A stretch of DNA of 64,000 nt from Chiloscyllium plagiosum (taxonomy: Eukaryota), in assembly GCF_004010195.1 (NCBI RefSeq), contig NC_057753.1:14910651-14974650 (forward strand), in the 5' to 3' direction. Of the stretch, positions 3,579 to 64,000 are shown in pieces (positions within the stretch are counted from its first letter, which is position 1; each line of letters starts with the position of its first letter). The notes beneath the pieces were generated by a model. The model had not been told where the DNA came from. It saw nothing but the letters and a program-made list of their open reading frames with translations, and made no database searches. A program made the position numbers and the translations under genes.

Positions 3579-4960
3579 TCACCCTTCTTTTGTTAAGACC
3601 ATGTTGAAAAAGTGCAAAATAGCCTGGACCAGAGAGGCTATCAGGNNNNNNNNNNNNNNNNNNNNNNNNNNNNNNNNNNNNNNNNNNNNNNNNNNNCCAG
3701 GATAATGATACCCACAACCGCAATATGGGATATTAGTTTCTCCAGCAGTTCAGTGCCCCGAGAGGCAAGCCAGAAGATTGCCCATGTCCACAAGTCCCTG
3801 TGTGACTCCGGTTCATTTGGGGCAGCAGCAGCCTGTGGAAAGTGGTGTGTCAGGTCGGTTATATTTTCGCTGGGGTCAGGGATGTAGGTACAGCAGTCTG
3901 TGCCAATGAAGGTGCAAGTGCCCCTTTTGTGGCCAGCTCGTATTCGAGGGCCATTCTGTTTTGTAGGGCGACAGTACGAATGGCGACAGCCTCTGCATTC
4001 AGCTTGGCAAGAACTTCAGCCGTAGCATGTTATCTCCTCTAGCATGGTGGCCAGCTGAAGTGCTTCTATGTCGAGGCGCAAGGTTTTGTAAGTGGACACA
4101 AAAACGGGGAAGGTGGATTTCTCGTCTAGGGCAGTGAGGGTACGTTTTCTGTGGGAATAAGCTTCTGGAAGGGAGACGACTGGGAGTTGTAATGGAGTGG
4201 TACCGCATACCCATGTGCTAGCCCATGACAACGCCAGCCAGGGTATGCCTTGTGACAACAGACAAAATAAGTGTCATTGTATGTTCTTAGGTTTGGGTTC
4301 CTGTCCAAATATTGTTGAAAATGGAATTGTGGCCACACATGTTGTGGCCAAGTAAATCTAGGATGCTGCACTCAGCTACAGACCAGAGTGCTCCAGGGGT
4401 CAAGAGCAGAGAGTTAGTGCATCGGCTCCACCTAGGCACCCATGCGAATCTCGTTAGGCACATGGTTTCTCTGCGTGACCCTCGTGCGGTGGTGCCAGTG
4501 ATGGCCATGGTTGGGTGTTCATGTGTGAGGTTCTGGGCTGCATAGAAGCATCCTGTGATTCTGTCTAGGTGGTATCCTGCGGATTTCCAGTAGTCTGAGC
4601 TATGAGCCACACGAATGGCCGGTCTGGTTAGCAGACTGAGCGTTGTGATCCCAGGGACCTGTCTAGTTTAAGTCACAATTATGCCATCTCTGCAGTGTTA
4701 AAATGGACTGCGCCCTGGGGAATGCCGCTGTGGGAATATTCAGGGATACGGGAACAGACCCAGCAGCTGGTCTGGTTTACCTTTGGGCACAAAGGTGGTC
4801 ATGTCAAGGAAAATGCTCACCCACGGCTCACGGTGGATTAAGTACCCTGTGTGTGCCCTGTTACTGATCAGCGGTGAAGTGCCGGTCAGACCAAATGTGA
4901 TTATCCCGATGGCTGCAGGGAGCAGCTGGATCCCTCTATGGTGTCTGGAGCTGTATCCTG
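3579..4960 (-). pseudogene. env: ERV env pseudogene (gamma-type envelope)
   Basis: SU CxxC motif 'NQTSCWVCSRIP' (CWVC at 4754-4765); furin-like 'HRKR'; ISD-like 'LQNRMALEYELA'; CX6CC 'CTFIGTDCC' after a frameshift; hydrophobic TM segment at the small gap; tail '...FFNMVLTKEG*' ending at 3579. Multiple frameshifts; 5' boundary approximate. Confidence 0.9.
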
Positions 4961-5019
4961 TTCTGCTTGGTTGTCCTTCTGTGGAGGCGGAGCCCTCTTT
5001 CACCGGGTCGCATTCTGGT

Positions 5020-8000
5020 CTCCCTTGGAGCGTGACAGCTGTTGTGGTCGTGAGACAGGTCCTTTCCATCTAGGGGAGAGAGAATCTTTCTGCGCGGACT
5101 GTCTCCTTACATAGTGCCCAGTTTAAGTGGGTGAAGTGGTTCCTGCCGTGGGGTGGATATGGCAGCTTTTTTTTTGTTTGCCTTTTTTTTGTTGTACCCC
5201 CCACACTATAACTAACTGCGGTAGTGCTTATTTTTTCTCCAGCACCCATGTTATGTGTGTGCAGGTTTGATACACAGTGAAAGATTGAAGGTGTATGAAT
5301 CTTTATTCAGTTTCCACCAGCAGGAAGATAAGAAGCACCCAAGTACATCGCAGGTTTTAGCAAATCTTGGTTCAAAGTGATCCTTCTACTAATGGCTTGA
5401 ACGTAATGAAAGATAATTTCCTGTGTTAAGAGCAGCTGTGACATTGGCTAGTTTTGGGGGTCCGTTGACTATGGGCATGGGTCGTTCCATTAGCACTTCA
5501 AATGGTGTAATTTCCGACATTCGGTTTCCCTGTCCACTTACTGTGTGAAGCACCAGTGGACGGCCGTCTGGCCAAGCCAGTCCTGTGTCCCGAGTGATTT
5601 GGGGAAGGTGGTTTTGAGGGTGCTGTTCATTCTCTCCAATACTTCTGATGACTGGGGGTTGGTACAGAATGCGGTATCTCCTGGGTATCCCGAGGGGTCA
5701 CAGTCAGCAGTAATGAGCTTCGCGGAGAAATTGGCACCATCCCCTATATGATTCTATGCGCCCTGGGATATAAAACTCTTGAAATAACGTCCTTCAGGAT
5801 ACATTTTATCACTGCTCTGGCGTCTGGGGAATGACTCTACCCAATTTGAAAACATGTCGACAATAACTAAGTCAAATTTTTATTCCTCCTTCTGAGGCGT
5901 GTGGGCAAGATCAATTAGAAGATAAGTGAATGGACCATCAGGAACTTGAATGTAGTCACGTTTGGCCATTGGCTTCCCTGAAGTTTTCGGTAGACAGATG
6001 AGGCACTGTGACAGCAGAGCTTAGGCAGCTGCAGCGACTCCCGCTGCATACCAGGAATGGCTGACAGCATCTTGCTTGTGTGTTCGATTCCGTGTACCAC
6101 CACGGCCAATAAGTGCAGGTGGGCTTTCAGTTAAATAATGCAGCGGTGTATAAGAACCTATAAGAACGGTTGATTGTACGGCGCCAATGCGGACCCATGC
6201 GGCCCTTTCAACTGGAGTGGCAGTTTGCTGTGCTGTTGGGACTGCATCGAGAGAGTCGAGGGAATCTGGCGGTTTCACCACCCTGGAGGTCTGCAGGGCA
6301 TAAGTGGCCAGGGTTAGTGCAGATTCCTGGGTGGCTGCATCAGCTGAGGCATTTGCTTGGGTGACGGGATCAGTGACAGAGTTATTGGCATCACATTTTA
6401 TAATTGTGAAAGCGGCAGGTAGCAGAGCTGCTTGTTGGATGTTGGCAATGAGTGCAGCATATTGGAGTGGTCTCCCTGCTAAGCTGATGAACACCCTCTG
6501 TTTCCATATTGTGCCAAAGTCCGGAACGACTCCAAATACACATCTGGAATCTGTGTAGATATTGGGTGTGCCAGAAGGCAGGCTCTGGTGAGAGAAAAGA
6601 GCTCTGCCACCTGTGTGGAGACCCCATCTGGTAATGCAGCTGAGTCGAGAGTGGTGATGGGGGTGCAGATGGCTTGGACTGCCAATGTGTATTTGTCTGA
6701 TGGCCGGAAGGAAGAGCCGCTGGTGAAAAGAATCTGGTCCGGGTTTTCTCAGACCGATCAGGACACCTGCTGAACCAGGCAAAAGTGAGGACTGCAGATG
6801 CTCGAGATTAGAGTCAAGATGAGAGTGGTGCTGGAAAAGCACAGCGGTTAAGACAGCATCCGAGAAGCAGGAAAATCAACGTTTCTGGCAGGAGCCCTTT
6901 GTCAGGAATGCTAAACCAGGTCCAAGCAGTTGTGGTTGTCTGCAGAATCGTGTTAGGTGTGCGGAATTAGGGTGGCGGGGTTCAAAGCTAGGGCGCAGTG
7001 TGGAGAAAGGTATGCCTAGATCATAAAGTGACCTCATGACCAGTTCTCTGAGTTGGATTGCCGCTGAATTAAGCAGCAGGGAGAGTGACAGTGAAACCAA
7101 AACAGTACACGGGTGATCTAGCACAATGGAGGTGGCCTTATCCACTGTTTGTAGCTGCTTCCACCGTGCACAAACATGCGGCATTCTCGTAACTAAGCAT
7201 TATACAATGCAACAGGGCTAAGCATTATACAATGCAACAGGGCGACGGAGATCCCCATGAAGCTGTGTTAAAATGCCAGATGCAAACTATTCTGACTTGG
7301 TTACATAAAGGTAGAAGGGCTGTGAGTAATCTGGGACTCCCAGAGCAGGAGTGAAGATTAGTTGCTGCTTCAGTTCAGTGAATGCCCGTTGCATTTCGGG
7401 TGTCCACTTCACATTGGCTGGCTGTTTAGGGGAAGCTGCCTCCCACAGAGGTGCATCAATAGCCCAATGGACAGGAATCCAGGGCCTGCAGTAGTTTACC
7501 AGCCTCAGAAACATTTGCAGCTGCCTGTTTTTGGCAGGTAGGGGAATCTGGGCGATGACAGCCAATTGCATCGTGGACAGTGCTCTGAGGCCATAGGAAA
7601 GATTGCACCCCAGATATTATCGTTGGCAGTGCTCTGTGGACATAGGAAAGGTCGCACCCCAGATATTAGACATTTTGCTGACACAACTGCATTTTCTTGA
7701 TCGACACCCTATGCCCATCCTCTGCCAGACCGCAGAACAAGGCCACAGTAAACTGCTTGCATGCAGTAGCGGAGGTGGAAGCCAATAGCAGGCCATCCGC
7801 AAATTGGAGGATGGTGCTGTGGCATGGTAAGTGAAGGGTGGACAGGGTAAGGAAAACTGCAGCAACATAAACTGTGAGGCTCTCCGAATACCCTTAGGAA
7901 AACCGGTCTATGTATTTTGGCAGCCGCCATATGTAAAAACATAAAGTTTCAGGGGGCAACGTAATGGAGAATGAGGCTGAGCAAAGGTCGATTACAAGAA

Positions 8001-19647: not shown

Positions 19648-19841
19648 GTTTCCAGAAGTTGCTCGCCATGGTGTTTCCGAACTACTTGAAAACCATTCAC
19701 GAGGAGAAGGACCGCCTCGTGGTCATGACGATTCTGGAGTCCATGAACAACGTGTTGAAGAACTGCAAAGGGGACACGCTGAAGGAGCCAGGCCGCCTGG
19801 ACGAGATCTGCAAAGCCATCCGCAACGTACTGCAGAAAAAG
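19648..19841 (+). CDS. IPO4: Importin-4 exon
   Basis: cag|...|gtcagc; FQKLLAMVFPNYLKTIHEEKDRLVVMTILESMNNVLKNCKGDTLKEPGRLDEICKAIRNVLQKK. Confidence 0.95.
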
Positions 19842-20844: not shown

Positions 20845-20898
20845 ACAGCTTGCCAAGACCCGGAGAACGACGAGACCGAGTCGGATGAAGAGCAGGAG
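20845..20898 (+). CDS. IPO4: Importin-4 exon
   Basis: ttgcag|...|gtagga; TACQDPENDETESDEEQE (human TACQDTDEEEEEEDDDQ). Confidence 0.92.
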
Positions 20899-21189
20899 GT
20901 AGGAATGCGCAGGTTTGCAAACGTTGAGCAACCGGCAGATGATTCCGTTTTTGAATTCCCGTCGATCCCCATGCCGGCACCTTATGTTACGACTGGCAGC
21001 TGATGTATCTGCTTTGCTTGTACTTATTCAGTATGACACGTCCGCAGTGGTTTTTCTTTGGCTTGTTGGAAACCCCTTCGATTGTGGCTGGTCAAAGCTT
21101 AATGAGTTTACTGGGGTTTCTGGAATTGGAATGACAGTTAGTGACTAGCCTTCACCCGAGGGAGGCTCAGCAACCAGATACCCGACCCA

Positions 21190-21960
21190 CGGTTCCCAGT
21201 GAATAGAGAAAGCGTTCCCTCGTCTTTGTTTGGAATAGGTCCCCCTTCACTTTTAAGCGACCACCCCTTGTTTCTCTCACAAGAGGAAGCATCCTTTTCC
21301 ACGTCCACCCGGTCAAGTCCCCTCACAAATCTTTTACCTGTTTCGACTGAGTCACCTCTGGCTTCTTCCAACCTCCCAGAGGATACAGGCCGAACCCTGT
21401 CTAGGCTTTCCTCATTCCGGGGATGAGTCGCCTAAACCTTCTCTGAACTGCTTCCAACACACTGTACATCCTTCTGTAAGTGAAGTGGCCAGGACAGCAC
21501 ACTGTGCTCCAGATACAGAAACGATAACTTAAGCATTACCTCTTGACTCTTACATTCAACATCCCTCACAACAAAACACCGCATCCTACCAGCTTTCCGA
21601 ATTTCTTGTTACGCCTGCCTCTGTGATTCACACACTGAGACACCCAAATCCCCCTCAATGCCAGTTTTCTACTTACTGCCAGTTTCCCACTTCCCCACAT
21701 TGTATTCCATTTGGCAGATCTCTGCCCACTCGCGGAACCTGTCTCTATCCCTTTGCTGTCTCCTTTACGTGCCCTTCACAACTCCCTTTCCTGGCTACCT
21801 TTTGTGTCATCGGCAACTTTACCTCCCATATTTTCAAACCCTCCGCCCAAATTATTTTCTTTAAGGTGTAAAGAGTTCATGTCCCAGTACTGAGTCCTGT
21901 GACACACCACTCACTCGTGTACAAGATCCACTTATTCCCACTCTCTAGTTCCGGTTAATC
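21190..21960 (-). mobile_element. Degenerate CR1 LINE 3' fragments
   Basis: Minus strand 'RGDSVETGKRFVRGLDRVDVEK' and decayed RT motifs. Confidence 0.65.
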
Positions 21961-21969
21961 GGCCGATCT

Positions 21970-22290
21970 GGGTGGCACGGTGGCTCAGTGGTTAGCACTG
22001 CTGCCTCACAGCACCAGGGACCCAGGTTCGATCCCAGCCGCGGGCAACTGTCTGTGTGGAGTTTGCACATTCTCCCCGTGTCTGTGTGAGTTTCCTCCGG
22101 GTGCTCCGGTTTCCTCCCACAGTCCAACGATGTTCAGGTTAGGTGAATTGCTCTTGCTAAATTGCCCGTAGTGTTAGGTGCATTAGTCAGAGGGAAATGG
22201 TGTCTGGGTGGGTTACTCTTCGGAGGGTCAGTGTGGACTTGTTGGGCTGAAGGGCCTGTTTCCACACTCTACGGAATCTAAACTAATCTT
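21970..22290 (+). mobile_element. HE1-type tRNA-derived SINE, near full length
   Basis: GGTGGCACGGTGGCTCAGTGGTTAGCACTGCTGCCTCACAGC...GGTTCGATCCC (A/B-box-like) with a CR1-like tail GGGCCTGTTTCCACACT. Confidence 0.9.
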
Positions 22291-23032
22291 CTGTCCATGC
22301 CAACCTGATGGCGCCCCCTACACCAGGAGCTTATATTTTCCTCAGTGCCTATCACATGCCTTCTGGTAATCTAAGGAAGATACATTGACTGGTTTATCTA
22401 CAGCACAAGTTCAGACCATTAGACATTGGAGCAGAAATGAGACCATTCAGCCCATCGTATCTGCTCCACCATTCAATCATGCTGATAAGTTTCTCATCTC
22501 TATTCTCCCGCTTTCTCCCCATAACCCTTGATACTCAAGAACCTGGCTACCTCAGTCTTAAATATATTCAATGACCTGACCTCCACAGCCTTCTTCAAAG
22601 GACTCCAACAAATTAGTCAACCATGATTTCTCTTTGACAAGACCATATCGGTCTTGAAATTATCCCGGTGCCCAGTAGTAACATCTTCTAACATTTTCCC
22701 TCTGACAGATGTTAAGCCAACCGGCCTGTACTTTCCTGCTTTCTGTCTCTCACCCTTTTTTATTAATAATGGACGTGCAGCAGTTATTTTCCAATTGAAG
22801 GAACCTTGCCTGAGTCTCGTGAGTTTTGGGAAATGACCTGACTCGCTACATCTTTGAGAGGCTGTTCCTCCGGCTTGCGATTGGAACACCGCAGCAGACC
22901 CAGGGCACAACTGTCAGTCTAGGGGCAAGACGGTTCATCGAAATGGTGAGCAACTGGAAGGTCAGGGCCATTCGTCTGGGCAGAGCAGAGGTGCTCCCGC
23001 CTCCCCTACCCCGTCAGTGTTTGATCTCTGCA

Positions 23033-23877
23033 CTAAACGCTGGAACACCCTCCCACCTCACTCCCATCCCTCCTGTGGAGGGAGAGCTCCGACGGCTTGC
23101 CAGTGTTGAGGAGAACGTGGATCAGTGCGTACAGACCAGACTGCTGCAGCACGGGCTCTGGCCCGCGTCGGGAGAGTTTCCAGACGTGCGCAAAGAAGCG
23201 CAGGCTGAGGCGTTCAAAGCAGCTGATGAAGGAGGAGGTCAGTCCCAAGTACGGTAGATCCGGGTAGAGCATGAGTGCGGCAACCAGCCCAGGGAGAAGG
23301 TAGCCTCGCTCAGAGCGGCGTGTTGGTGTGGTGTGGCCAACCTTCAGAGGGTGGCATGATGCCTCTCCTGAGATCGGAGGTTCTGAAGGCAGAGCTGGTG
23401 TGGGAACCTGGTGCAGCGTCTCTGAACTCTCCGCCTGCATCCTCTGACAGAGGAGGTAGCTGCTCGTGACCATGAGCCCCGTGAGCGCGAGGAAGGGATC
23501 TGGCAGGTAGAAACCCCGCAGGCAGCCGAGGCCGTCGAAGGGGTGTTCTCCCAGGCATCGGCGGGCAGGGCGGATGGCATCCGGGTAATAGTGGGCCCCG
23601 TACGAAGTGGCGATGATCCAGCAGAGCAGGGTGTAGACCCCGTTCACCAAGGTTAGCTGGCGCCTGGCAGGAGCTGGCCGGCCGGAGAGCTGGTGCTTGC
23701 CCACGGGCACCACCTGCTGGAGCCTGCTGGCGAAGTGAGTCTCTGCAGCAATCAGAGCCAGGATCAGGAAGGTGACAGCGTTGTACGTCTCATTGAGAAA
23801 GGCAAGGAAGCGGAGCGAGATCACTTCCTGGCCGTTTGTCAGTTGTAGGTCTGTGAACCAGCAGAGGAAGAGGAAGC
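23033..23877 (-). CDS. Nested antisense gene, exon 2: multi-pass membrane protein, GPR160-like orphan receptor candidate
   Basis: Acceptor ttttctgtgccctctttag|GC in phase with exon 1. 845-nt uninterrupted frame with several hydrophobic segments (FLFLCWF; VISLRFLAFLNETYNAVTFLILALIAAE; VYTLLCWIIATSYG; PFLALTGLMVTSSYLL; YLLPGLVAALMLYP). TAG stop at 23033. Family assignment is from recalled similarity only. Confidence 0.75.
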
Positions 23878-25574
23878 CTAAAGAGGGCACAGAAAACATG
23901 GTCTTTTTAGGGGTTTTATAACCGGCCACCCTCTTGCAATCGTTGGGTGCTAAACTCCAACCAAAAAGCAAAAATACTGCATTTCAACATTGAACGAGGA
24001 GCACAATCTTAAAATCAGAGTATCAGGAGACGACCATTTGGCCCCTTGATCCTATCCCCCTTGCCAGGGAGACCATGGATAATTTGTATGTTAATGCCAT
24101 CTACACATCTTCAATCTGTAACCTTTCTCTGGCACATCAAAGTGTCCAGAACTATGACACAATATGATGGAGGGGCTTTCAGAGATGGATAGCCATTTTC
24201 CCCCTCTGAAATACGTCCAGAGAAGGCAGTTGGAAATCTTCAGGTTTTAGATATAGATACACAATTTGACATCTGTTGTTATTCTGTCTGTTTTATTCCT
24301 TGCATATGGTCTCTTTGTGTTTCTCTCATTCTTTTTGTTGCCCTCCCACGCTCTGGCACTCCTGTGCTAGTTCCCTCTGGCTCGCTGTTCACTGTCTACC
24401 TCTCTGCGCTGTTATCGAGTCGCAGTTGCTTACTTTACAGTTCTCGATTTCACACACTCTCATTTCTCTCCTCACCCAGGATCTTCTCAGTCAGCCTTTC
24501 TCATTCCCTTGCATCAACTGTGCGGGGATAAATATTCTAGCCTGACAGCGTGGGTTTTATTTTTGAAATCTGGTTACTGTGGCAGTCGCTCGCTGAGCAC
24601 ATTCATGCCCGGTTGTCGATGTACTTTTAAGAAAAGAACAAATCTTTATTACCGAAAAGGAAAAGGGGGGGGGTTAAAAATGGTAAATCTAGACAGTATG
24701 GAAAGATCTTACTATGGAACAGCAAAAATGAATGTCCTTTTGCAGCCATTCTGCCCCAGTGAAATATCCCTCCGCTGTACACTTCAAGATGTCCTAACTG
24801 TGAATTCCTGCATTTGGTATTTTCTTTCAGAGATTTGATGCCCTTTCAGCGGATGTGACTGTCTCTGTCTCTGTTACTGTCTTTCCCCAAGGCGCACAGG
24901 CTTAATCACTTACTTTGTTCTGGCTGATGACTCCCTTGTCGCTGCTTCTTTTTTAAAACACAAAGTTTGGAGCTTTTTCCAGCTCTGTTGGCCTGAAGAC
25001 TTCTCCAAGCTTAAAAGCAGCTCTCTGCTGGGATTGATCTTTTCTGGTTCCCTGTGCCCCTGGCCCTCCCTTCCCTCACTTACAATAAACAGCGCTAATC
25101 TCACCAGGCGACTTGCTGAGTGATTTAACTTTGGCCACATCAATTCTTGGAAAGGCCGGCTTTAACTCACTCTTCCACATGCCATTCTGCTTCTCTCTCA
25201 GCCAAACAAAAAGGGTTGAAAATCAGAATCTCGTTTGTCTACATTTGGAGATGCCGGTGTTGGACTGGGGTGCCTGGCGTTTTTAACTTCGTTTGTCTAC
25301 AAGTTTTGAGCCCAAGTTCCCAAAAATGCTCCATCGTGAACTTTCCTGACAGTGCAGACGTACTTGTGTTGGTGCAGCTAGACTGAAAAGAGCAGAAGTT
25401 CAGCTCTACTACGACGCGATAAAATGCGGAGTATTTCTGTGATTATTCATCCTGCTGCCCAGTTAGTTAACTGCTGTGAAGGAGCCTGGACTCCTCCTGG
25501 GCTGCTGGATCAGAGACGACTTTCGAATTGTTTTAAATTCTTGGGCTGCACTGGCTGGGTCAGCATTTATTGTC

Positions 25575-25775
25575 GAGAGCGTGGTGCTGGAAAAGCACAG
25601 CAGGTCAGGCAGCGTCCGAGGAGCAGGAGAGTTGACGTTCCGTCAGGGTGAAGGGCCTTTTGCCCGAAACATCGATTCTCCTGCTCCTCGGACGCTGCTT
25701 TGACCTGCTGTGCTTTTCCAACGCCACCCTCTCTGGACTCTAATCTCCAGCATCTGCAGTCCTCACTTTCACCTC
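25575..25775. mobile_element. Short palindromic Penelope pLTR-derived element
   Basis: GTGCTGGAAAAGCACAGCAGGTCAGGCAGCGTCCGAGGAGCAGG... mirrored by ...CTCCTCGGACGCTGC...GCTGTGCTTTTCCA, with a decayed hammerhead in the centre. Confidence 0.75.
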
Positions 25776-26789
25776 AGCATTTACTGTCCAGTTACAAACC
25801 AACCACACTCTTCTCGATCTGAGTCACGTTAGGCCAGACCGGGTAATGACATGGGTGAACCATGATTTCTTTTTTCCCTTTCCCAACAATCAGCAAGACA
25901 TTTGATTCCATTTTTTTTTGTTTCTGAATCTCTGTCATGGTGGATTTGAACCGGGATTCCCAGAGCATTACCTGGGTCTCTGGATTGATCAGCTCGTGAT
26001 AATGCCAGTGCCTTCCCCATGGCTGACCGTGGATTCTGAGGTGGTTCAGGCAGGCCAAAGTGATTTCTGCTTCCCGGCTCCGTGCCGAGTGCTTCACTTC
26101 ATCTCCACGCCTCAGCGAGCTCCGCGATTCAAATCTTGCACATCCATCCAAAACGGGTGTGTGTAACTCCTCAGACAAGCTCCTCAGACTGTTCTAGAAC
26201 AATCCCACAGCATGGCGGAGCTCTCCGGCGCCAGGCTGAACGTCTGTTTCTCAGTTGAACGTAGGCGATCCTGGTGTCCGCTGTTTGTTTCCTTTTTGAA
26301 AAGTGAGGAAAGGAGTTTGACCCGGCGGCCTGGAAGAGACCGTGACCAAAGCAAATGATTTGGCCGGAGTCCAGTTGCCCGTTTGGCCTGCAAACCGTGG
26401 GCTGCGTTTCTTGCTTTACAACAGAGACGGCACTTCAGAAACTCCCTCGTTCGCGGTAGACTGCTGTGGGAGGTCCTGAAGAGGTGCCATGCAGAGAATA
26501 GTCACTCGTCCCTTTTGAGAGAGGATCCCGTTCACTGTTTCCACCCACCACTCTTTCTCCTTTCCTGATTTACATATTTCCTCTTGGAAAACGTACTCAC
26601 TTTATTTATGAAAATCAGCATTACATTTACTTTCACCACTCTCTCGACCAACTTATTCCAGATCAAAATTCATGGCGCCAGCAAATGTCATTCTCATCTC
26701 TCAGCTGGTTCTTTCTAAATTGGTGCTGTCTGCTTAGTTGCAATGCGAACAGCTTGTCCTTCTCTTTACTGCCATCAAAGCCCCTCCAT

Positions 26790-27066
26790 GTGTGGAAACA
26801 GGCCATTCAGCCCAGCAAACCCACCCTGACCCTATTACTCTACACACACCCCTGACTAATACGCCTAACCTACACATCCCTGAACACTACGGGCAATTCA
26901 GCGTGGCCTATTCACCTAACCTGCACACCTTTGGATTGTGGGAGGAAACCGGAGCACCCGGAGGAAACCCACGCAGACACGGGGAGAATGTGCAAACTCC
27001 ACACAGTCGCCCGAGGCTGGAATTGAACCCAGGTCCTGTGAGGCAGCACTGGACCACCGTGCCGCC
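26790..27066 (-). mobile_element. HE1-type SINE
   Basis: Reverse complement of the SINE at 21970-22290. Confidence 0.85.
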
Positions 27067-27176
27067 CTAATCTGTCTAGGAGAAACCATCCCAACTTCTC
27101 AAAGTTCTCCACACAGCAGGAGTACAGGGGGTTTGCCTGAAAAGGACACGAGAACGCGGTTAGTTTGATGCAGTAC

Positions 27177-27318
27177 CTGTGACACAGATGTCGGTGAACA
27201 GGAGCAGTACGATGGTCTGTCCGCTAACAGACTGGATGCACACCGCGCCTTTGGAGCAGGCGAGGTTGCTGGTAATCCTGAGTGCCCCGAGGCACAGAGT
27301 CCTCTCTGTCAGCCCCAT
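27177..27318 (-). CDS. Nested antisense gene, exon 1 (from first in-frame ATG; may extend to ~27440)
   Basis: MGLTERTLCLGALRITSNLACSKGAVCIQSVSGQTIVLLLFTDICVT then ACAG|gtactg donor; 142 nt (phase 1) matches the exon 2 acceptor. The frame stays open upstream (...AILSLWK) to a stop near 27443. Confidence 0.65.
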
Positions 27319-28300
27319 CTTCCACAAAGAAAGAATGGCTGCACACGACAGCACGCCTTCACTTCTCCGAAGCAGCAACCGAACGCAGCTCCATGTAAAA
27401 ACGGACCCGGACACCGGATGAAAGGGATGGCTGCTCTTGAACTAGCCTGAGGGGCTTGTCTTTCCCCTCACCTGGTCATTTGCAGTGGCTCAGAACCGGT
27501 GTGAGTCACTGTTCAGAGCCAGTCGGGCAGAGGACTCTCTGATGTTTTACATAGCTGCCGCTGTTTCTCAGCAGACAGGCAAGCACTTGGTATTTGCTTT
27601 AGAGCAGGTCTAACCTGTTACAACACGAGTCTAGCACACACACACACGCACACAAGAGGGGGTGGGGTTTGGGGAAAGGGAGACCAGGGAATGGTAAATC
27701 CCAGTCCAAACAATGCGCTTTTGGAACTGGGAGGATTACAGAGATGCTATAATGGTGTTGGCATTCGGCTCGGACCTGTTTTAAATGGGATGTTTTAGGC
27801 CTCTCCCACGTGTCCCCTCAAATCCTTCTCCAGTGCCCCTTGCGGCCTCACCGTGAACAGTGGTTGAGAGTTTTGTGTGGCTCTCGCTCTGACTTGGCGA
27901 TGCCATCCTTTTCCTGCTGCCCTACTGTTCCTGGCGATGTCCCCAAGGCTGTAACCCCGTTCCTGTTCGTCATTGTGACATGTGAGAGCACACCGTTCGT
28001 TTTCACAGATACACTGACCTGTGGCCTGTTCCACCTTGCCCGCCACCTCTCTCGGCTCTTCCACCATCCTGGAATTATGGCCGTGCCCGTCTCCCGCCCA
28101 GTACTGGGGCGGCAGAAAGTTCCTGCTGTAGCCGTCGCTTTCGGTCCCCACTGAGCAATCTGCCCTGATCCACCCACTCCCGTCCGTCCACCTGGGGGCA
28201 GATGGAGACTAAGCCAGTTTCTTTGTGAACTTGGTGGGGTGTCAGACTCTGGTGGTGCAGTTAAGCCACTGCTCTGGGACCCACCACCACCTGGACTCCG

Positions 28301-29279
28301 CCCCCCCACCCCCAACCCTCCTGCAGCCAATGTTTCCCACACCGATTCCTGGGATGGCAGGACTGACAGATGGAGAAAGACCGGATCGATTAGGGGACGA
28401 TATTCACTGGGACTGTGGAAGAATAAGGAGAGTGGGGGGGGGGGGACCTCCATGAAATTTAGACAGGGCAGACGCAGTATATTCTCTGACCGTGCAGACC
28501 AGAAACCAGGGGCACAGTCGAAGGATACAGGGTAAGGCCGTTTAGGATTGGCGTGAGGAGACATTTTTTCATCCGGAGACTGAGCCCAGGGGAATTCTCT
28601 GGCCATTGGCAGTTTTTGTGTGGTTCAGCTGCCTGAGAACCAATCAGATAATTGTTGCTGGGCAGAACACCTCCTGACGAAGGGCTCATGCCCGAAACGT
28701 GGATTCTCCTGCTCCTCGGATGCTGCCTGACCTGCCGCGCTTTCCCAGCCACACACTTTTCAGCTGCGAACACCTTTTGTCACGGATTCCCCCCCTCCCC
28801 ACCCCCAACCCTCCTGCAGCCAATGTTTCCCACACGGATTCCTGGGATGGCAGGACTGACAGATGGAGAAAGACCGGATCGATTAGGGGACGATATTCAC
28901 TGGGACTGTGGAAGAATAAGGAGAGCGGGGGTGGGGGGACCTCCATGAAATTCTAACAGGGCTAGACAGGGCAGACACAGTATATTCTCTGACCGTGCAG
29001 ACCAGAAACCAGGGGCACAGTCGAAGGGTAAGGCCGTTTAGGATTGGCGTGAGGAGACATTTCTTCATCCGGAGACTGAGCCCAGGGGAATTCTCTGGCC
29101 ATTGGCTGTTCTTGTGTGGTTCAGCTGCCTGAGAACCAATCAGATAATTGTTGCTGGGCAGAACACCTCCTGAGGAAGGGCTCATGCCCGAAACGTGGAT
29201 TCTCCTGCTCCTCGGATGCTGCCTGACCTGCCGCGCTTTCCCAGCCACACACTTTTCAGCTGCGAACACCTTTTGTCAC
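28301..29279 (+). repeat. Tandem duplication of a ~490-bp unit
   Basis: CCCCAACCCTCCTGCAGCCAATG...CACCTTTTGTCAC occurs twice. Each copy includes a CR1 scrap and a pLTR-derived segment with a hammerhead-like head. Confidence 0.9.
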
Positions 29280-30459
29280 TGGTCTGCAGACTGATGCTCG
29301 GTCACCAATCAGCTCCTCCCTGCAGGCCGAGTCTCCGTTGAAACATTCCCACGTGGCTCCGGCCTGTGTGTAAAGTTCACCCTGACTGGAGCCGGCACCT
29401 CTGTAAATGAGGGCTGTTTTAAATAAACGGTAATCCTTCAGCTCGCCTTCATTCTCAAACCAGTTCTTCTCCCTTTTCGGTCCACAGTTAAAGATACAGT
29501 AAAACAAAAAGGCACGGTAGTGACACCTTCTCCCACCTTGTCACTCCTCTGCCAGTACGCCTCTAGTTCTTCTCCCCTATACGTCCCACACTTCAGTTCC
29601 TAAAGTCTGGAATTTCTCTCCGCTATCCCGTTGCATCTCTCTCTGCCCCCTTGTCTCCGGCACTCTCTTCCTCTAATTCCCGACGCCTTTGGTCATCTGC
29701 CCCAGTCTCTCCTTTTGTGAATCAGTGTCGTGTTTTGTCTGTCCACCCATCCCTGGCCTACCCCTTCCTCCTCCTCGCCTGCCAAGTATACCTGCCTGCT
29801 TATCTTGTGCGCCCTCGTCCCTCTCCCCTCCTCCGTCCCTTGCTCACTCACTTCTAATCCCTCGGAACCAATGCCCAACACCTGCCGACCTGTTCCTAAC
29901 CCCAGGCGAGCTGAGATTGTAAACGGTTCTCTGACGGCACCAGCCTCTTCCCCCCCCCCCCCCAACCTACCCACACCCAGCGTCGTTCCTTCTCCTCAGC
30001 CACATCTGATAGTGACCCCTCTGCCTGTCTTTACAAGCTGTGACACACCCTCCTCCACCGACTCCTCTCCCCTTTCCTCTCCCTGCACCAGCTTTCCCAA
30101 CCATTGCTGGTGACTGATTCACCCGGGAAAAACCCGACGCCGTTGGCTTTCAGCCTCACCGCAGACGTTGTTTGCTCACCATCGACTCCGTCCCAGTCCT
30201 CGGCTGCTGTCAGAGGCAGAACCAGACGGGTCGCAACCTTTGGTGTCCTGTTGGACATGCACACCCTCCCCTTCCACCCACCGCCCCCAGCTTTCTCTTG
30301 ACCAAGAGGGCTGGCATTGTCTGACCACCCACACCCGAACCCCTTCTCCGGAGAGGGGCTCCAATCAACACCTCCCGGACCCTGAGGCAGAATCACGTGC
30401 ATGACCTTTGACACTGCTGTGGCTGTTGCCAAAACGATGGGTCAGTTCTGTTTTTTTAG

Positions 30460-30760
30460 ATTACATTACATTACAGTGTGGAAACAGGCCCTTCGGCCCA
30501 ACAAGTCCACACTGACCCGCCGAAGCGCAACCCACCCATACATTTACCCCTTACCTAACACTACGGGCAATTTAGCCTGGTCAGTTCACCTGACCTGCAC
30601 ATCTTTGTGACTGTGGGAGGAAACCGGAGCACCCGGAGGAAACCCACGCAGACAAGGGGAGAATGTGCAAACTCCACACAGTCAGTCGCCTGAGGCGGGA
30701 ATTGAACCCGGGTCTCTGGCGCTGTGAGGCAGCAGTGCTAACCACTGTGCCACCGTGCCG
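30460..30760 (-). mobile_element. HE1-type SINE
   Basis: (ATTAC)n tail on the + strand; head ends ...CCACTGTGCCACCGTGCC. Confidence 0.88.
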
Positions 30761-31487
30761 TGTTCGAACGGGAGGTGTGGAGTTAAAGTTCCGCACGTGC
30801 ATGTTTTTTTTTAAATTCGTTCACAGCATTTATTCAAGCCCATCCCATTTATTGCCCATCCCAAAATGCCCAGAGGGTAGTTGAGAGTCAACCACATTGC
30901 TGTGGGTCTGTAGGCCAGACCGGGTAAGGATGGCAGATTCTGTCCCGTTAGTGAACCAGATGCGTTTTTCCTGACAGTCAGCAATGGATTCACAGTCGTT
31001 ATTAAACTCTTCCTTCCTCCCAGATTGTGCGTGAGTTCAAATTACACCATCTGCCGTGGCGGGGTTTGAACCCAGGTCCCCTGAGCACTGCCTGGGTTTC
31101 TGGATTATTCCTGATGAAGGGCTTCTGCCTGAGCTGCTGTGCTTTTCCAGCACCACGCTCTCGACTCTGATCTCCAGTATATGCGGCCCTCCCTTTTACT
31201 GGATGAACCGCCGAGCGGTAATCCCATTAAGGGCCTGGAAAAGGATCGGGTGACACCCCCCGTGCGCCAGCCTCGATGTTGTTATTCGGGGCTTGCGCGT
31301 TTTATAACCAGCTGTTTACTTCGCAGGTTTGACGTCTGTTTGACCAGTCACAGCGACCGACCGACGGCCTTTCGAAGCGTTCACTGCCTTCTGTGGGGGC
31401 GGGGGGGGGCCAGTCGAGGTCTTAGTAGAAATAGCCTCCGACTGTTGGCCCTGTGTGTGGCTGACTTGTCCTTTCTTCTCCTTGCAG

Positions 31488-31613
31488 GCTGAGTATGACT
31501 CCATGCTCCTGGAATACGCCGGGGAAGGCATCCCCCTTCTGGCTGCTGCCGTGGGAGGACAGATCTTTGCCCCGTACTTTGCTGGCTTCCTCCCCCTGTT
31601 GCTGGGTAAAACG
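31488..31613 (+). CDS. IPO4: Importin-4 exon
   Basis: ttgcag|...|gtgcgt; AEYDSMLLEYAGEGIPLLAAAVGGQIFAPYFAGFLPLLLGKT (human AEYDAMLLEHAGEAIPALAAAAGG). Confidence 0.96.
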
Positions 31614-32690: not shown

Positions 32691-32899
32691 AAGCCCAGCT
32701 GCACGGTGGCTGAGAAATCCTTTGCCATTGGATCGATCGCAGAGACGGTGCAGGCCATGGGGCCGGCGACGGTGCAGTTTGTTCCCCGGCTGCTGCCCAT
32801 GCTGCAGGCTGGGGCGCGGGACACCGACGACGAGGTGCGCAGCAATTCGGTCTTCGGCATTGGTGTTCTTGCCGAGCAAGGGAAAGAAGCCATCTTCGA
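32691..32899 (+). CDS. IPO4: Importin-4 exon
   Basis: ctgcag|KPSCTVAEKSFAIGSIAETVQAMG...EVRSNSVFGIGVLAEQGKEAIF; ends GA|gtatcct (phase 2). Confidence 0.95.
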
Positions 32900-58560: not shown

Positions 58561-58862
58561 GATGTTGACCCAAGTGGTGATGTTCACTTTGCACAGATGG
58601 AATAAATTCCCACATTGTCCTGTTGAGATAATTTTCTCAATGGGGCCATTTGACGAACTCTCCCTTTCTGTGATGAATACCATTTTATAAAATACCCTTC
58701 CCCTTTCAGCATTCCCAGTTGGTGTTTTGCGTTATTTTGTAGCAGAGTGCATTTCTCCCATACCCTGACCCTGATTGCTTGGTGAATGGGGGGTAACGGC
58801 TCTGGTGCGCGTTTTCATGCTTGTAACTTGTTAACCTTCGTTTCTATTTTTGCATCTTACAG

Positions 58863-59177
58863 AGGCATTTCGTCTGAGACTTGAGAATGGGGGCGGTCGT
58901 TGTGCTGGTCGATTAGAGATTGAATTCAATGGACAGCGGTTTACTGTCAATCATAATGAATGGGACCTTCCGGATGCTACTGTTGTGTGTCGGCAGCTGA
59001 ACTGTGGTACCGCTGTGTCTGCTCTCGGTGGGGCTCACTTTGGACCAGGATCCGGACTCGTTATATACTTGGGCATTGAGTGCAAAGGGACCGAACGTAT
59101 GGTGTTGGAGTGTCCAATAAGCAGAATTGATAACAACGGCACCTCACACGACAATGATATTGGTGTCATCTGTTCAG
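58863..59177 (+). CDS. SRCR domain exon 1 (CD163/WC1/DMBT1-like)
   Basis: cag|...|gtaaaa, 315 nt, phase 1-1; LRLENGGGRCAGRLEI...WDLPDATVVCRQLNCG...FGPGSG...CKGTE...GVICS. Confidence 0.95.
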
Positions 59178-59746
59178 GTAAAAATCTACTGTCATTTCTA
59201 TGTAATTTAATCACAATCCAGTGCTGTGAAACTAGAAGTGGATATGATAGCAGAATGAAAACTGCCCAATAATTATAAACAGAATAACAATGGAATTTAT
59301 TTCATTGGATTTATTCGGTATCGTCATATAATGTGTTGAACATTTGAAGGCAATGGGAGAGGTGAGTACCTGTTACTGTTTACGCTCCTGTGAAGGGGAA
59401 GGAGAGGTGTCCAAAGTGATGTCACTTGAAGCCAAATCGAAAGATACCCCCCTGGAACTATCACATTTACAACCCAATTTATAATGAGACTCGACACTGT
59501 GTTGGCGAGCAGAATCACTTGTCATTTATCTTTAGCCTGAAAGTCGTTTTCTCTTTGACGAGCTGAGGATCAGGATTCTGGTGATGAACACAAGTGAGAT
59601 TGACAGGGCTGCAAACTCACACTGATTGACGGAATCATTTGTATCCAGAGATTTCAGATCTGCCATTAATCTGATGAATGTTCTTCCGTCAATAATATGA
59701 ATTGGTATTGTTTGTAGTCGTTATGATTCAATGTTTCTCTTTTCAG

Positions 59747-60061
59747 ACCACATCATTCCGAGGTTGGTCCCTGGAAATTCCCAATGCTTCGGCAGACTGG
59801 AGGTCCTGTTTGGTGACACCTGGAAAACAGTGTGTGGTCTTGACTGGGATTTGAAAAACGCTAATGTGGTCTGTGCGCAGCTTCATTGTGGAGTGGCAGT
59901 GTCTGTTTCAAGCTCTGCTCATTCTGGCGGCAGTACTGTGCTCATGGGGACTGAGGTGTTTAAATGTACGGGCAATGAGACTCAGCTGGGGAAGTGCCCT
60001 TGGTCTTCAACCACGCACCAGGATTGCATTGGACACAACAGTGTCACCCTGATATGTTCAG
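59747..60061 (+). CDS. SRCR domain exon 2 (group B, 8 Cys)
   Basis: ttttcag|...|gtgagg, 315 nt; PRLVPGNSQCFGRLEV...TVCGLDWDLKNANVVCAQLHCG...CTGNETQLGKC...LICS. Confidence 0.95.
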
Positions 60062-62024
60062 GTGAGGACAGATGTAATGGAGAAAGAGGGACGCATTTCG
60101 CTTTAATGTTTGCAAAAGTAATACTGCTGGCATTGCTGACATTGCTCTAACTGTGCCAGATTTTAAACAGTGCTTGTAGTTTCCAAACTAGTCAAGCAAC
60201 TAGCTGCAATGTGGCATAGTGAACACGCAATTATTGGGACATAAGGTAGTTCAAAAATATTGCAATTGTGTTGGAAAAGAGATTTCGTCAAGTTTGTAAA
60301 CTGTCTGCACTCAACATGTTTTATTGTCTCCATTGTGTAAACGTCGAATCATTAAGATAGTAGTGAGCAGGTGTTAACGTAGGTAAATTGAAGTGAATAT
60401 CAATTAAATTCATGTCAGGCTTTTCTTTTAACTTTTCCGGCCCCCCTTAACATTTTTGAACAGTGTATCTAAACTGTTTAAAATAATGAAACAGCACTCT
60501 CTCCGACAAATTCTTCAGCATGCATTTACAGCTCACAATACTTCATCATATAACATTTGTCATCATGGACATTTGTTCAACCATCGCATTCTGAACGTAA
60601 CATGGCGTCTGGAGGCGATCCTACGCATTCCGTCACCATCACGTCGGTTTGAACTTACCTTTCTTAAGACCACTGTGTAATTTATAATAGTGTCCATATG
60701 ATCAGTTATCCAATTCAGTGTCATTCCAATGCACACCACACCTCTTGCCCTAACCTTAACCTTTGTGCCTATTACTCTTCCAAAGATCGGCTAACGGAAG
60801 TAATTTATTTTCCTCAGCTGACTTATTTGAGCAGTCACATTCTCGGGTAACTTCAGCTCCATTGTTTCAATGCAAACGACAGCTGGTCTCATACAATCTT
60901 CTCGAAAATAGAAGCGTCGTTGTATGTCTACTCCAGTATCGCTTGCTCGTATCTCCTCAAAGACCATGACATCCTTTGTGAATAATGTGTTGTACATAAT
61001 TGTACACACCGCTTTTTATTATCCTAAAGACAACTGGATAACAATCAACGTGGCTTCTCTGCTTCTGCAGTAACTAACTCTAACTCCACATTGAAGTTAA
61101 AGTTGCAAAGCTGATTAGCGTGTCATGTATTGTATCAACTTGAAGCCCTCAGCCCTTCTTTCTATACGCACTTATTCAAAATCCGAATAGAGAAAAAGTG
61201 AAACCTCCACATACAGATTTCCTGTCACTTTCCTGGCTGCCAGAATATGCCCCCTAATGCTTTTTTGAATTAAGTCCCATTTGTCACTTGTCTATCCGTT
61301 CTGCCGTCCTTTCATTGCCCGACTAAAGTTGATAGCTACCATCCTTAATGGTTTGAACACATTAATGTCTTGTATCATGAGCTATTACTTTGCATCTTAA
61401 TGCAAACTTGGGAAATCCCTTCTTTCAAAACCACAAATGTGAGGCTGTTATTAGTATCCTTACTATGCTTTTAAACGTCATGAATGTCTCAATTATCTTA
61501 AACTGCTAAACTCCCTTGTTGACCATATTTAATTGAAGTGCTTTAATATCGAAAATATTGGTAACTTCTGCCATTCGAGTCGCATTGGAGTGCAGCATTT
61601 CCGACGGAGATCCAGTAACTCAGTTGGCCGAATGGCTGGGATGTGATGTAAGTTGATGCTGACAGCATTGGTGCAATACCTACTGGGTCTGAACTTGGCC
61701 TGAATGTCTCCATCGTTCGCCCTTCAGCTGCTTAGTGGTAACCTTCAGGCTCAATCGCCATCAGTTTGTCTCTCTCTCTCTCTCACGAGCGTGTAGTTAT
61801 ATGATCATCTTGACTTTGGTGACTCCTCCTTCAAAGCTAATCCAACTTCGCGAGCACTCATCACCAAATGCAGCACAGATTTTCACTGAGCATAGAGTGT
61901 TAAAACGCATCCTCATTATTTAAATTCGACAGGACTCGGCATGAGTCATCACAAGCAGTCTGTTAGGAAGATTATTTCACTGTGAGTGTTACAAGCAGGT
62001 TCGTGAAGTAAACGTAATTATTTT

Positions 62025-63475: not shown

Positions 63476-63607
63476 TTGAAGAAATTAAATCTCTGTTATT
63501 AGGATGTTGCACGGATAAGATGCTATTGGTTTTCTCTTTTGCATCTTGCAGAGTGTCTGTAATAATAGGGATTTGCAAACACTTGTAATTTGTTTGGTCC
63601 AAAACAG

Positions 63608-63931
63608 GAAACCATGGACTCCGGTTGGTTGGTGGGGAGCACCGGTGCTCTGGGCGAGTGGAGGTCCTGCACGGGGAGCAGTGGGGAACGCTGTGTGGTG
63701 ATTACTTTGACGCACAAACCGCCAGCGTGGTCTGTGAGCACCTTCAGTGCGGGACTGCAAAGTCGATACCCAAAGATGCTCGATTTGGGAGGGAAGCCGG
63801 GCCAATGTGGAAACAAAACTATAAATGCCGTGGAAACGAGAAACGATTGGGGGACTGCACAGTTTTGCACGAGGAAAATTTCAACTGTTCCCATGGAAAT
63901 GTGGCCAATGTCATATGTTCGGCTGTGTCTG
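63608..63931 (+). CDS. SRCR domain exon 3 (group B, 8 Cys); gene continues beyond the window
   Basis: aacag|...|gtaagt, 324 nt; LRLVGGEHRCSGRVEVLHGEQWGTLCGDYFD...VVCEHLQCG...CRGNE...CSHGNVANVICS. Confidence 0.95.
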
Positions 63932-64000
63932 GTAAGTCTGGCAGATGTCCTTCCTGACGAAAGATAATTAAGTGGATACGCTTTTGGATCAAGTGATGCT

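What the first reader, a model, noticed from the sequence alone, without database searches (positions are those of the whole stretch)
23033..27440. Nested antisense two-exon gene for an orphan multi-pass membrane protein inside an IPO4 intron
Seen: within the 10.6-kb intron 20899-31487, a phase-matched donor (27177) and acceptor (23877) join into a stop-free frame of 328 aa from the ATG at 27318. It has five or more hydrophobic segments, no transposon motifs, and a minus-strand AATAAA at 22759-22764. From memory, 'ILSLWK.GL...LLLFTD..VT.FL...W......VISLRFL.FL.ETY' resembles uncharacterised fish GPR160-like proteins. Inference: a divergent orphan receptor-like gene hidden antisense in a housekeeping gene and easy for annotation to miss. 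This is the best candidate for undescribed biology in the window. The true start is uncertain: the frame is open upstream and a short out-of-frame ATG ORF precedes it.
Basis: partly seen in the sequence, partly recalled or inferred. Interest (0 to 1): 0.72.

Follow-up and report, generated by a model that had tools for sequence, protein, structure and literature searches.

The report
Stripped-down GPR160-like receptor inside IPO4 intron
A shark gene lying backwards inside an intron of the importin-4 gene is already catalogued as 'uncharacterised' and belongs to an unnamed family found in sharks, bony fish and amphibians; it is likely a stripped-down relative of the orphan receptor GPR160, predicted to have lost the parts that such receptors use to switch on G proteins.

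Summary
It was not missed by annotation, since it is identical to RefSeq XP_043538373.1 (LOC122543612). It is not an orphan either: intact relatives occur in other sharks, bichir, sturgeon, teleosts, a caecilian and frogs, with the same start Met, and the intron site recurs outside sharks. It is not GPR160 itself, which sits on another contig between SEC62 and a polyhomeotic gene. The family keeps the class A anchors D2.50, E/D3.49 and W4.50, and models as a seven-helix bundle whose nearest solved folds are GPCRs (modest Z). It lacks C3.25, R3.50 and NPxxY, its ICL2 varies from 24 to 102 residues, and its TM6-ECL3-TM7 segment appears about 16 residues shorter than in any control receptor. Kinship to GPR160 rests on four private residues, two loop spacings and language-model features; alignment scores do not show it. 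Best reading: a G-protein-silent, GPCR-derived membrane protein with a collapsed TM6/7 hairpin. Splicing here, nesting in other species and function were not observed. The scan held no earlier finding on this sequence.

The parts
27177..27318 (-). Coding exon 1 (Met1-Thr47 plus one base): TM1, ICL1, most of TM2 with D2.50
   Evidence: Met conserved in 43 of 46 aligned rows
23878..27176 (-). Phase-1 GT-AG intron, 3,299 nt, after Thr47
   Evidence: same site implied in whale shark model P0009 and bichir isoforms and seen as an acceptor in locus L126
23033..23877 (-). Coding exon 2 (residues 48-328 and stop): end of TM2 to C-terminus, including the shortened TM6/TM7 hairpin at residues 240-277
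22759..22764 (-). AATAAA, candidate poly(A) signal about 270 nt after the stop
   Evidence: use not shown
27359..27394 (-). Out-of-frame upstream ORF of 11 codons, ending 40 nt before the main ATG
   Evidence: function not tested
20899..31487 (+). Host importin-4 intron, 10,589 nt, just before the exon matching human residue 825
19656..19841 (+). Importin-4 exon (3' part; 5' end not mapped), human residues 748-807
20845..20898 (+). Importin-4 exon upstream of the host intron (18 codons)
   Evidence: fills the gap 808-824 between the two matched exons
31488..31613 (+). Importin-4 exon downstream of the host intron, human residues 825-866
32691..32891 (+). Next importin-4 exon (3' end not mapped), human residues 867-930

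Best explanation
This is a conserved two-exon gene nested antisense in an importin-4 intron, whose protein is likely a GPR160-derived, GPCR-fold membrane protein that probably no longer switches on G proteins and is predicted to have a collapsed TM6/TM7 hairpin. Shown: the gene structure, conservation across jawed fishes and amphibians, the retained anchors D2.50, E/D3.49 and W4.50, the absence of C3.25, R3.50 and NPxxY, and the short hydrophobic segment after ICL3. Inferred: an ancient duplicate of GPR160 lost about 16 residues covering the outer half of TM6 and ECL3. TM6 and TM7 would then form a short hairpin that turns inside the outer leaflet and leaves the helix-bundle pocket open to lipid. 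With the TM6 switch and the G-protein face gone, it would act as a 'pseudo-receptor': binding a hydrophobic or lipid-like ligand through the conserved core (R3.26, Y3.35, D2.50, an acidic residue at 7.45, a probable intra-ECL2 disulfide) and acting through partners other than G proteins. My odds by step: real gene 0.97; class A ancestry 0.85; GPR160 as closest relative 0.7; shortened TM6/7 hairpin 0.7; G-protein-silent 0.65; lateral lipid pocket 0.3.
For: Gene: identical RefSeq protein and 5 other shark clusters at 53-72% identity over exon 2; 91 of 153 helix positions invariant in 6 sharks, against 4 of 26 in ICL2, 2 of 46 in ICL3 and 2 of 52 in the tail. Family: 29 non-shark relatives; 18 of the 19 looked up are named, from bichir, sturgeon, teleosts, a caecilian and frogs; the tree of 28 members groups sharks, frogs and ray-finned fishes. 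Class A anchors among rows with a residue: D2.50 45 of 45, E/D3.49 45 of 45, W4.50 44 of 44, N1.50 23 of 43. AlphaFold2 models of the shark and Xenopus proteins (pLDDT 78.6, 81.2) give seven main helices, with TM6 of 14 and 20 residues and no full ECL3. 47 of the top 50 structural matches of the Xenopus model are GPCRs, aligned over residues 1-240 (best Z 9.6). Lost motifs: Cys at 3.25 in 0 of 45, Arg at 3.50 in 0 of 45, [ND]PxxY in 0 of 46 rows; ICL2 span 24-102 against 25-30 in 71 shark class A controls and 28 in GPR160. The 6.50-to-7.45 distance is 14, against 30 in GPR160 and 29-43 in all 90 controls, and no further hydrophobic segment follows in the 20 of 29 members with tails long enough to test. 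GPR160 link: top three Atlas clusters for both proteins queried (0.91-0.94); K1.46, Y3.35, Y4.56 and N7.37 are in GPR160 and in 0 of 71 controls; spacings 26 and 53 are shared with GPR160 by 20 and 16 of 29 members and by no control.
Against: No function, ligand, topology or expression was observed. The family HMM does not hit shark GPR160 at E<=10. hhalign ranks GPR160 9 of 31, a free block search gives z 0.8, and the fixed-register score ranks it 7 of 72. GPR160 has only 4 of 17 signature residues, and 3 of 71 controls have 3. The window's own protein has R1.46, T7.37 and spacings 25 and 50, so it matches GPR160 only at Y3.35 and Y4.56. The TM6/TM7 register was set by eye against GPR160, so N7.37 and the figure 14 are partly circular. 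A register-free run length was noisy (family median 43, range 30-59, GPR160 59; it picked TM5 in 4 of 29). Fold scores are modest: shark model best Z 7.6, rmsd 6.7; Foldseek no E<=0.001; a non-GPCR helical bundle ties at Z 9.1. The structural alignments end with model residue 239-240 on the end of TM7, which by recalled receptor numbering is about two turns later than my sequence register. GPR160 itself lacks R3.50 and NPxxY yet is listed as class A, so motif loss does not prove silence.
Confidence: 0.5

Rival explanations
1. It is an atypical but working G-protein-coupled orphan receptor, a second GPR160-type receptor of fishes and amphibians, in which a shortened TM6 still swings out on ligand binding.
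For: D2.50, E/D3.49, W4.50 and an acidic 7.45 (36 of 41) are conserved, as are two ECL2 cysteines (43 of 43, 45 of 45). Fold matches cover all seven helices. Some UniRef entries already carry the automatic name 'GPCR family 1 profile domain-containing'. GPR160 is classed as class A without R3.50 or NPxxY (sequence; class in PMC13494238, passages).
Against: ICL2 ranges from 24 to 102 residues and the cytoplasmic loops are not conserved, unlike a G-protein interface. No R3.50, CWxP or NPxxY. GPR160 itself gave no response with 12 G proteins to its proposed ligand CART (PMC10935005, first half of the text read).
Confidence: 0.2
2. It descends from a class A receptor, but residues 240-270 cross the membrane only once, giving a six-pass protein with an outside C-terminus; the conserved buried charges would then serve a transport-, channel- or chaperone-like role.
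For: Only about 30-38 mostly uncharged residues follow ICL3. Helix 262-284 carries charges (E269, R270, R274). The C-terminal tail is nearly absent in some members (1-9 residues after position 277 in 5 of 29).
Against: Both models break the segment at the conserved prolines into two helices, and structural alignments place the second on TM7. The segment after the proline matches GPR160's TM7 better than most controls do (rank 5 of 72).
Confidence: 0.17
3. The family is not specially related to GPR160; it comes from another receptor branch, or is an unrelated helical membrane protein whose anchors match by chance.
For: All alignment-score tests failed to single out GPR160. GPR160 sits on a 6.3-change branch in the tree. 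Atlas scores of 0.90-0.92 also go to 7tm_1 clusters, and 0.90 to TMEM116. Z values lie within the range that helical bundles reach by chance.
Against: Three near-invariant anchors and a half-kept N1.50 at class A spacing; four residues and two spacings shared with GPR160 and with none of 71 controls; the same top three Atlas clusters for two proteins only about 22% identical.
Confidence: 0.1
4. It is a pseudogene or a chance antisense frame that automatic annotation propagated.
For: No junction reads were seen here; 2 of 100 shuffles reach the frame length.
Against: Intact frames with helix-biased conservation in sharks, fishes and amphibians; high GC3; conserved start and intron site.
Confidence: 0.03

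Closest known systems
GPR160 (orphan class A GPCR; shark copy P0070 at G000:C13:64633269-64634300)
   Same: K1.46, Y3.35, W4.50 with Tyr six residues later, N7.37, short ICL1 and ECL1 spacings (family level), no R3.50, no NPxxY, no Pfam 7tm_1 hit. GPR160 is the most divergent human rhodopsin-family receptor (PMC2117022, passage) and remains orphan, the CART pairing being unsupported in two later studies (PMC13494238, passages). P0070 is named GPR160 by its place between SEC62 and a polyhomeotic gene (human order in PMC11339866, passage) and by recalled sequence features, not by a database label.
   Different: Separate locus (C44, inside IPO4); a coding intron that GPR160 lacks; N-terminus 18 residues before 1.50 against 39; Leu for C3.25, with a Cys pair in ECL2; ICL2 and ICL3 long and variable; about 16 residues missing between TM6 and TM7; no significant alignment score.
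RefSeq 'uncharacterized protein' LOC122543612 (XP_043538373.1) and its unnamed relatives (Xenopus XB22041731.S, bichir LOC114645839 and others)
   Same: The window's protein is this record letter for letter; the relatives form one family.
   Different: Nothing in sequence. The records give no family name or function; some UniRef entries carry only an automatic GPCR-profile label. None of the five names searched was found in the paper library.
Non-signalling or motif-degenerate 7TM proteins (atypical chemokine receptors, GPR50-type modulators; recalled)
   Same: GPCR fold kept while G-protein activation motifs are lost; action through ligand capture or partners.
   Different: Those keep full-length TM6, ECL3 and TM7 (recalled); this family appears to shorten the hairpin itself. 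No sequence link was tested.
Nested intronic genes of vertebrates, e.g. LRRTM in alpha-catenin (PMC3933685, search listing only)
   Same: A membrane-protein gene inside a large intron of another gene.
   Different: An ordinary arrangement; whether nesting in IPO4 is conserved beyond this genome could not be tested.

Membership tests
Nested antisense protein-coding gene | Whole coding region inside one intron of a host gene, on the opposite strand | tested here: met
   CDS 27318-23033 (-) within intron 20899-31487 (+) of importin-4
Nested antisense protein-coding gene | Spliced transcript in this species | tested here: inconclusive
   No reads could be laid on the junction. Indirect only: RefSeq models in 8 sharks carry both exons
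Class A (rhodopsin-like) GPCR | Seven transmembrane helices in GPCR arrangement | tested here: inconclusive
   Seven main helices in two models; 47 of 50 top matches are GPCRs, but Z 7.6-11.1 and rmsd 5-7 are within the range of generic bundles
Class A (rhodopsin-like) GPCR | Anchors N1.50, D2.50, D/E3.49, W4.50 at class A spacing | tested here: met
   23 of 43, 45 of 45, 45 of 45, 44 of 44
Class A (rhodopsin-like) GPCR | C3.25-ECL2 disulfide | tested here: not met
   Leu in 44 of 45, Cys in none
Class A (rhodopsin-like) GPCR | R3.50 of the DRY motif | tested here: not met
   Arg in 0 of 45
Class A (rhodopsin-like) GPCR | CWxP in TM6 and NPxxY in TM7, joined by a full ECL3 | tested here: not met
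   Trp at 6.48 in 1 row, [ND]PxxY in 0 of 46; spacing 14 against 29-43; register set by eye
Class A (rhodopsin-like) GPCR | Pfam 7tm_1 match | tested here: not met
   0 of 46 members at E<=1; shark GPR160 also has none
Class A (rhodopsin-like) GPCR | G-protein or arrestin coupling | not testable with these tools
   Needs cell assays
GPR160 orthologue | Position between SEC62 and PHC3; intronless coding region | tested here: not met
   That position holds another single-exon 7TM gene on C13; the window gene has two coding exons on C44
GPR160 paralogue | Significant alignment score to GPR160 | tested here: not met
   only one GPR160 sequence was on hand, which limits power
GPR160 paralogue | Shared residues and spacings absent from other class A receptors | tested here: met
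   K1.46, Y3.35, Y4.56, N7.37 each in 0 of 71 controls; spacings 26 and 53; Atlas top three
GPR160 paralogue | Sister position to GPR160 in a class A tree | not tested
   The tree held GPR160 as the only outside row, on a very long branch

The most novel reading that the evidence does not exclude
Jawed fishes and amphibians share an ancient, undescribed 'six-and-a-half-helix' receptor derivative: a GPR160 sister gene in which one deletion fused half of TM6 to TM7, making a re-entrant hairpin that opens the GPCR pocket to the membrane and uncouples it from G proteins; amniotes may have lost it.
Probability: 0.3. Interest if true: 0.75.

Novelty: new variant of a known kind. Interest (0 to 1): 0.5.

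Why it matters
The nesting and the gene model are ordinary and already in RefSeq. What would matter is the protein. A GPCR-derived family kept under selection since the shark/bony-fish split (over 400 million years, recalled) after losing the TM3 disulfide, the DRY arginine, NPxxY and apparently the outer TM6 and ECL3 would be a natural experiment in what the receptor fold does without its activation switch. It also offers a handle on GPR160, a cancer- and pain-linked human orphan whose CART pairing is disputed (PMC13494238, PMC10935005): residues kept in both (K1.46, Y3.35, Y4.56, N7.37) point to the shared ancestral function. Members in Xenopus and in killifish make it testable in standard laboratory animals.

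Tried and rejected
Pfam on exon 2, on 6 sharks and on 46 members: no 7TM family. PDB by sequence with both profiles: 0 hits at E<=10. Own-genome searches with a shark, a sturgeon and the GPR160 protein found no further family copy; weak hits L003 and L004 were read and showed no family frame, the other weak hits were not read (this search is insensitive). One search used a query out of frame by one base and is void; importin-4 was confirmed through PDB instead. A polyhomeotic Pfam search hit only another contig; the neighbour on C13 was found by SAM and zinc-finger motifs (motifs recalled). Sequencing runs: no RNA holder listed. No reads were laid on the junction, so splicing and tissue of expression stay open. 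Homodimer prediction gave no answer (score 0.00, alignment not used). dN/dS could not be computed: no orthologous DNA. Dropped rows: P0013 (a repeat protein) and P0017 (1,730 aa, 9 short stretches, not read) from the 33 hits; 19 of 90 control receptors lacking an anchor in the signature test; fragments and near-duplicates from the 29-member sets. Rejected: 'missed by annotation', 'orphan', 'uncertain start', and 'the shark GPR160'. Paper searches (listings only) showed no description of this family; subscription journals and supplements were not seen, so it may be listed in GPCR-repertoire tables. PMC7190928 was not held.
Full report
VERDICT. It is already in RefSeq as an uncharacterised protein and has relatives across fishes and amphibians, so it is neither unannotated nor an orphan. 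The interest lies in the protein, which looks like a class A receptor derivative, probably from GPR160, that has lost its activation motifs and part of TM6-ECL3. Helix positions below use Ballesteros-Weinstein numbers (convention recalled), anchored on the invariant columns of an alignment of shark receptors.

1. THE OBSERVATION. On the minus strand a GT donor follows 27177 and an AG acceptor precedes 23877. The two exons (142 and 845 nt) give 328 codons and a stop. The 3,299-nt intron is phase 1. AATAAA lies at 22764-22759, an 11-codon out-of-frame ORF at 27394-27359, and the ATG at 27318 has A at -3 and G at +4. The host is importin-4: three + strand exons match human importin-4 (7UNK) residues 748-807, 825-866 and 867-930, and the host intron is 20899-31487. 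The open frame alone is only mildly unusual (2 of 100 local shuffles reach 316 codons), but GC3 is 0.745 against 0.479 in the intron.

2. ALREADY ANNOTATED, AND CONSERVED. The spliced product equals XP_043538373.1, LOC122543612 of Chiloscyllium plagiosum. Five other shark clusters match exon 2 at 53-72%, and a Heterodontus fragment followed. Among six sharks, 91 of 153 helix positions are invariant, against 4 of 26 in ICL2, 2 of 46 in ICL3 and 2 of 52 in the tail. A profile search of 1.84 billion representatives gave 33 hits at E<=0.001: 2 sharks, 2 dropped as spurious, and 29 others. I looked up 19 of the 29. Eighteen are named, all as uncharacterised, hypothetical or automatic GPCR-profile entries, from bichir, sturgeon, teleosts, a caecilian and frogs; none is an amniote. 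That absence is weak, because the search was not iterated and most scores were marginal. A tree of 28 members plus GPR160 groups sharks (95/96), frogs (100/99) and ray-finned fishes (89/99), as expected of one orthologous family. The first Met aligns in 43 of 46 rows, which settles the start. The intron site recurs: a whale shark ab initio model begins with the same intronic read-through, bichir isoforms diverge at this point, and locus L126, 57% identical to the teleost query, has a phase-1 acceptor at the same place. Full-length sturgeon-type proteins on Logan contigs of 1.2-1.7 kb are probably spliced transcripts; that is inference. I saw no junction reads.

3. NOT GPR160 ITSELF. SEC62 lies at G000:C13:64.51 Mb. 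In the next 200 kb there is one single-exon 344-residue seven-helix gene, followed by polyhomeotic SAM and zinc-finger exons on the other strand. The human order is SEC62, GPR160, PHC3 (PMC11339866, passage). I take this gene, P0070, as shark GPR160, from position and recalled sequence features. The window gene on C44 is therefore a separate locus.

4. CLASS A ANCESTRY. Pfam and PDB sequence searches find nothing, but GPR160 has no 7tm_1 hit either. In 46 aligned rows, some near-duplicates, D2.50 is present in 45 of 45, E/D3.49 in 45 of 45, W4.50 in 44 of 44 and N1.50 in 23 of 43. AlphaFold2 models of the shark protein (pLDDT 78.6) and the compact Xenopus protein (81.2), both built on my alignments and so not independent, show seven main helices. 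Their nearest solved folds are GPCRs: 47 of 50 top rows for Xenopus, best Z 9.6, rmsd 5.6, 205 aligned, and Z 11.1 on a second look. The shark model reaches only Z 7.6, Foldseek gives no E<=0.001, and an unrelated viral helical bundle ties at Z 9.1. The fold evidence is supportive only together with the anchors.

5. HOW CLOSE TO GPR160. For: the three best Atlas clusters are GPR160 for both proteins queried. Of 17 family signature positions GPR160 shares K1.46, Y3.35, Y4.56 and N7.37, each found in 0 of 71 other shark class A receptors. The spacings 1.50-2.50 (26) and 2.50-3.49 (53) of GPR160 recur in 20 and 16 of 29 members and in no control. Against: the family HMM misses GPR160, hhalign ranks it 9 of 31, a free block search misplaces it (z 0.8), and fixed-register scoring ranks it 7 of 72. 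Three controls have 3 of the 17 signatures, and the window's own protein matches GPR160 at only two of the four. The controls were 90 of the 148 matches listed, of which 71 kept all anchors. I put the specific link at about 0.7.

6. WHAT IS LOST. No row has Cys at 3.25, Arg at 3.50 or an [ND]PxxY motif; one has Trp at 6.48. Two ECL2 cysteines are invariant instead and probably pair with each other. The N-terminus is only 18 residues before 1.50. ICL2 spans 24-102 residues, against 25-30 in controls and 28 in GPR160, which is hard to square with a conserved G-protein face. After ICL3 the family has one ungapped hydrophobic block. Its first half reads like the inner half of GPR160's TM6 up to the 6.50 proline, and its second half like GPR160's TM7, with 14 residues from 6.50 to 7.45 instead of 30 (29-43 in all 90 controls). 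No other hydrophobic segment follows. The models agree in part: TM6 is 14 residues in shark, and in Xenopus two helices and their turn span 45 residues. Caveats: the register was set by eye; the register-free measure was noisy; and the structural alignments end with residue 239-240 on the end of TM7, about two turns off my register by recalled numbering. The shortness is better supported than the exact register.

7. LIKELY WORKING. Shown: a conserved gene, a retained receptor core, lost switch motifs. Inferred: a GPR160 duplicate lost the outer TM6 and ECL3, so that TM6 and TM7 form a short hairpin and the pocket opens towards the outer leaflet. It then binds a hydrophobic ligand or a partner protein without activating G proteins (overall 0.5). 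Rivals: a working atypical receptor (0.2); a six-pass protein with another role (0.17); no special tie to GPR160 (0.1); a pseudogene (0.03). The nesting needs no special mechanism, and its conservation is untested.

8. WHAT IS KNOWN. GPR160 is the most divergent human rhodopsin-family receptor (PMC2117022, passages). It is still orphan, its CART pairing unsupported by two later studies (PMC13494238, passages; PMC10935005, first of two parts read; PMC13364575, passages). A search for three locus names and two family names found 0 papers; six broader searches showed no description in their listings. No supplements were read. Automatic UniRef names already tag some members as GPCR-profile proteins, so the receptor link is not wholly new. 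The scan held no earlier finding on this sequence or place, and the word search gave unrelated nested genes.

9. SCORES. Novelty: new variant of a known kind; I do not file it as a class A GPCR or as GPR160, since defining features fail. Interest 0.5: the locus is ordinary and annotated, but an old vertebrate family with an apparently collapsed TM6/7 hairpin would surprise a receptor specialist and is easy to test.

Noticed in passing
window 28298-29279: A near-perfect tandem duplication of about 495 nt (95-98% identity) inside the host intron, about 1 kb upstream of the nested gene's ATG; a recent duplication or an assembly artefact.
   Followed up: no
window 58835-59269, 59701-60147, 63589-63954 (+): Three SRCR-domain exons (Pfam E 7e-24, 6e-22, 2e-26): a scavenger-receptor gene of the DMBT1/CD163 type downstream of importin-4.
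   Followed up: partly
window 62094-63701 (-): LINE-type reverse transcriptase remnant with an assembly gap (RVT_1 E 2e-8), lying between SRCR exons.
   Followed up: partly
window 3644-6875 (-): Several open frames of 124-284 codons; one has a weak RNase H match (E 0.04) and one recalls a retroviral envelope end (recalled, no Pfam hit). Possibly a decayed retroelement.
   Followed up: partly
G000:C13:64633269-64634300 (L022:8269-9300): The shark's own GPR160, intronless, 344 aa, with Phe at 3.50 and no NPxxY, and no Pfam 7tm_1 match.
   Followed up: yes
tree: Tarpon and eel/bonefish members fall in two separate teleost clades, hinting at retained duplicates from the teleost genome duplication.
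   Followed up: no
window 27441-27450 (-): An acceptor-like pyrimidine stretch with AG just where the main frame opens, 123 nt above the ATG; there may be a further non-coding exon upstream.
   Followed up: no
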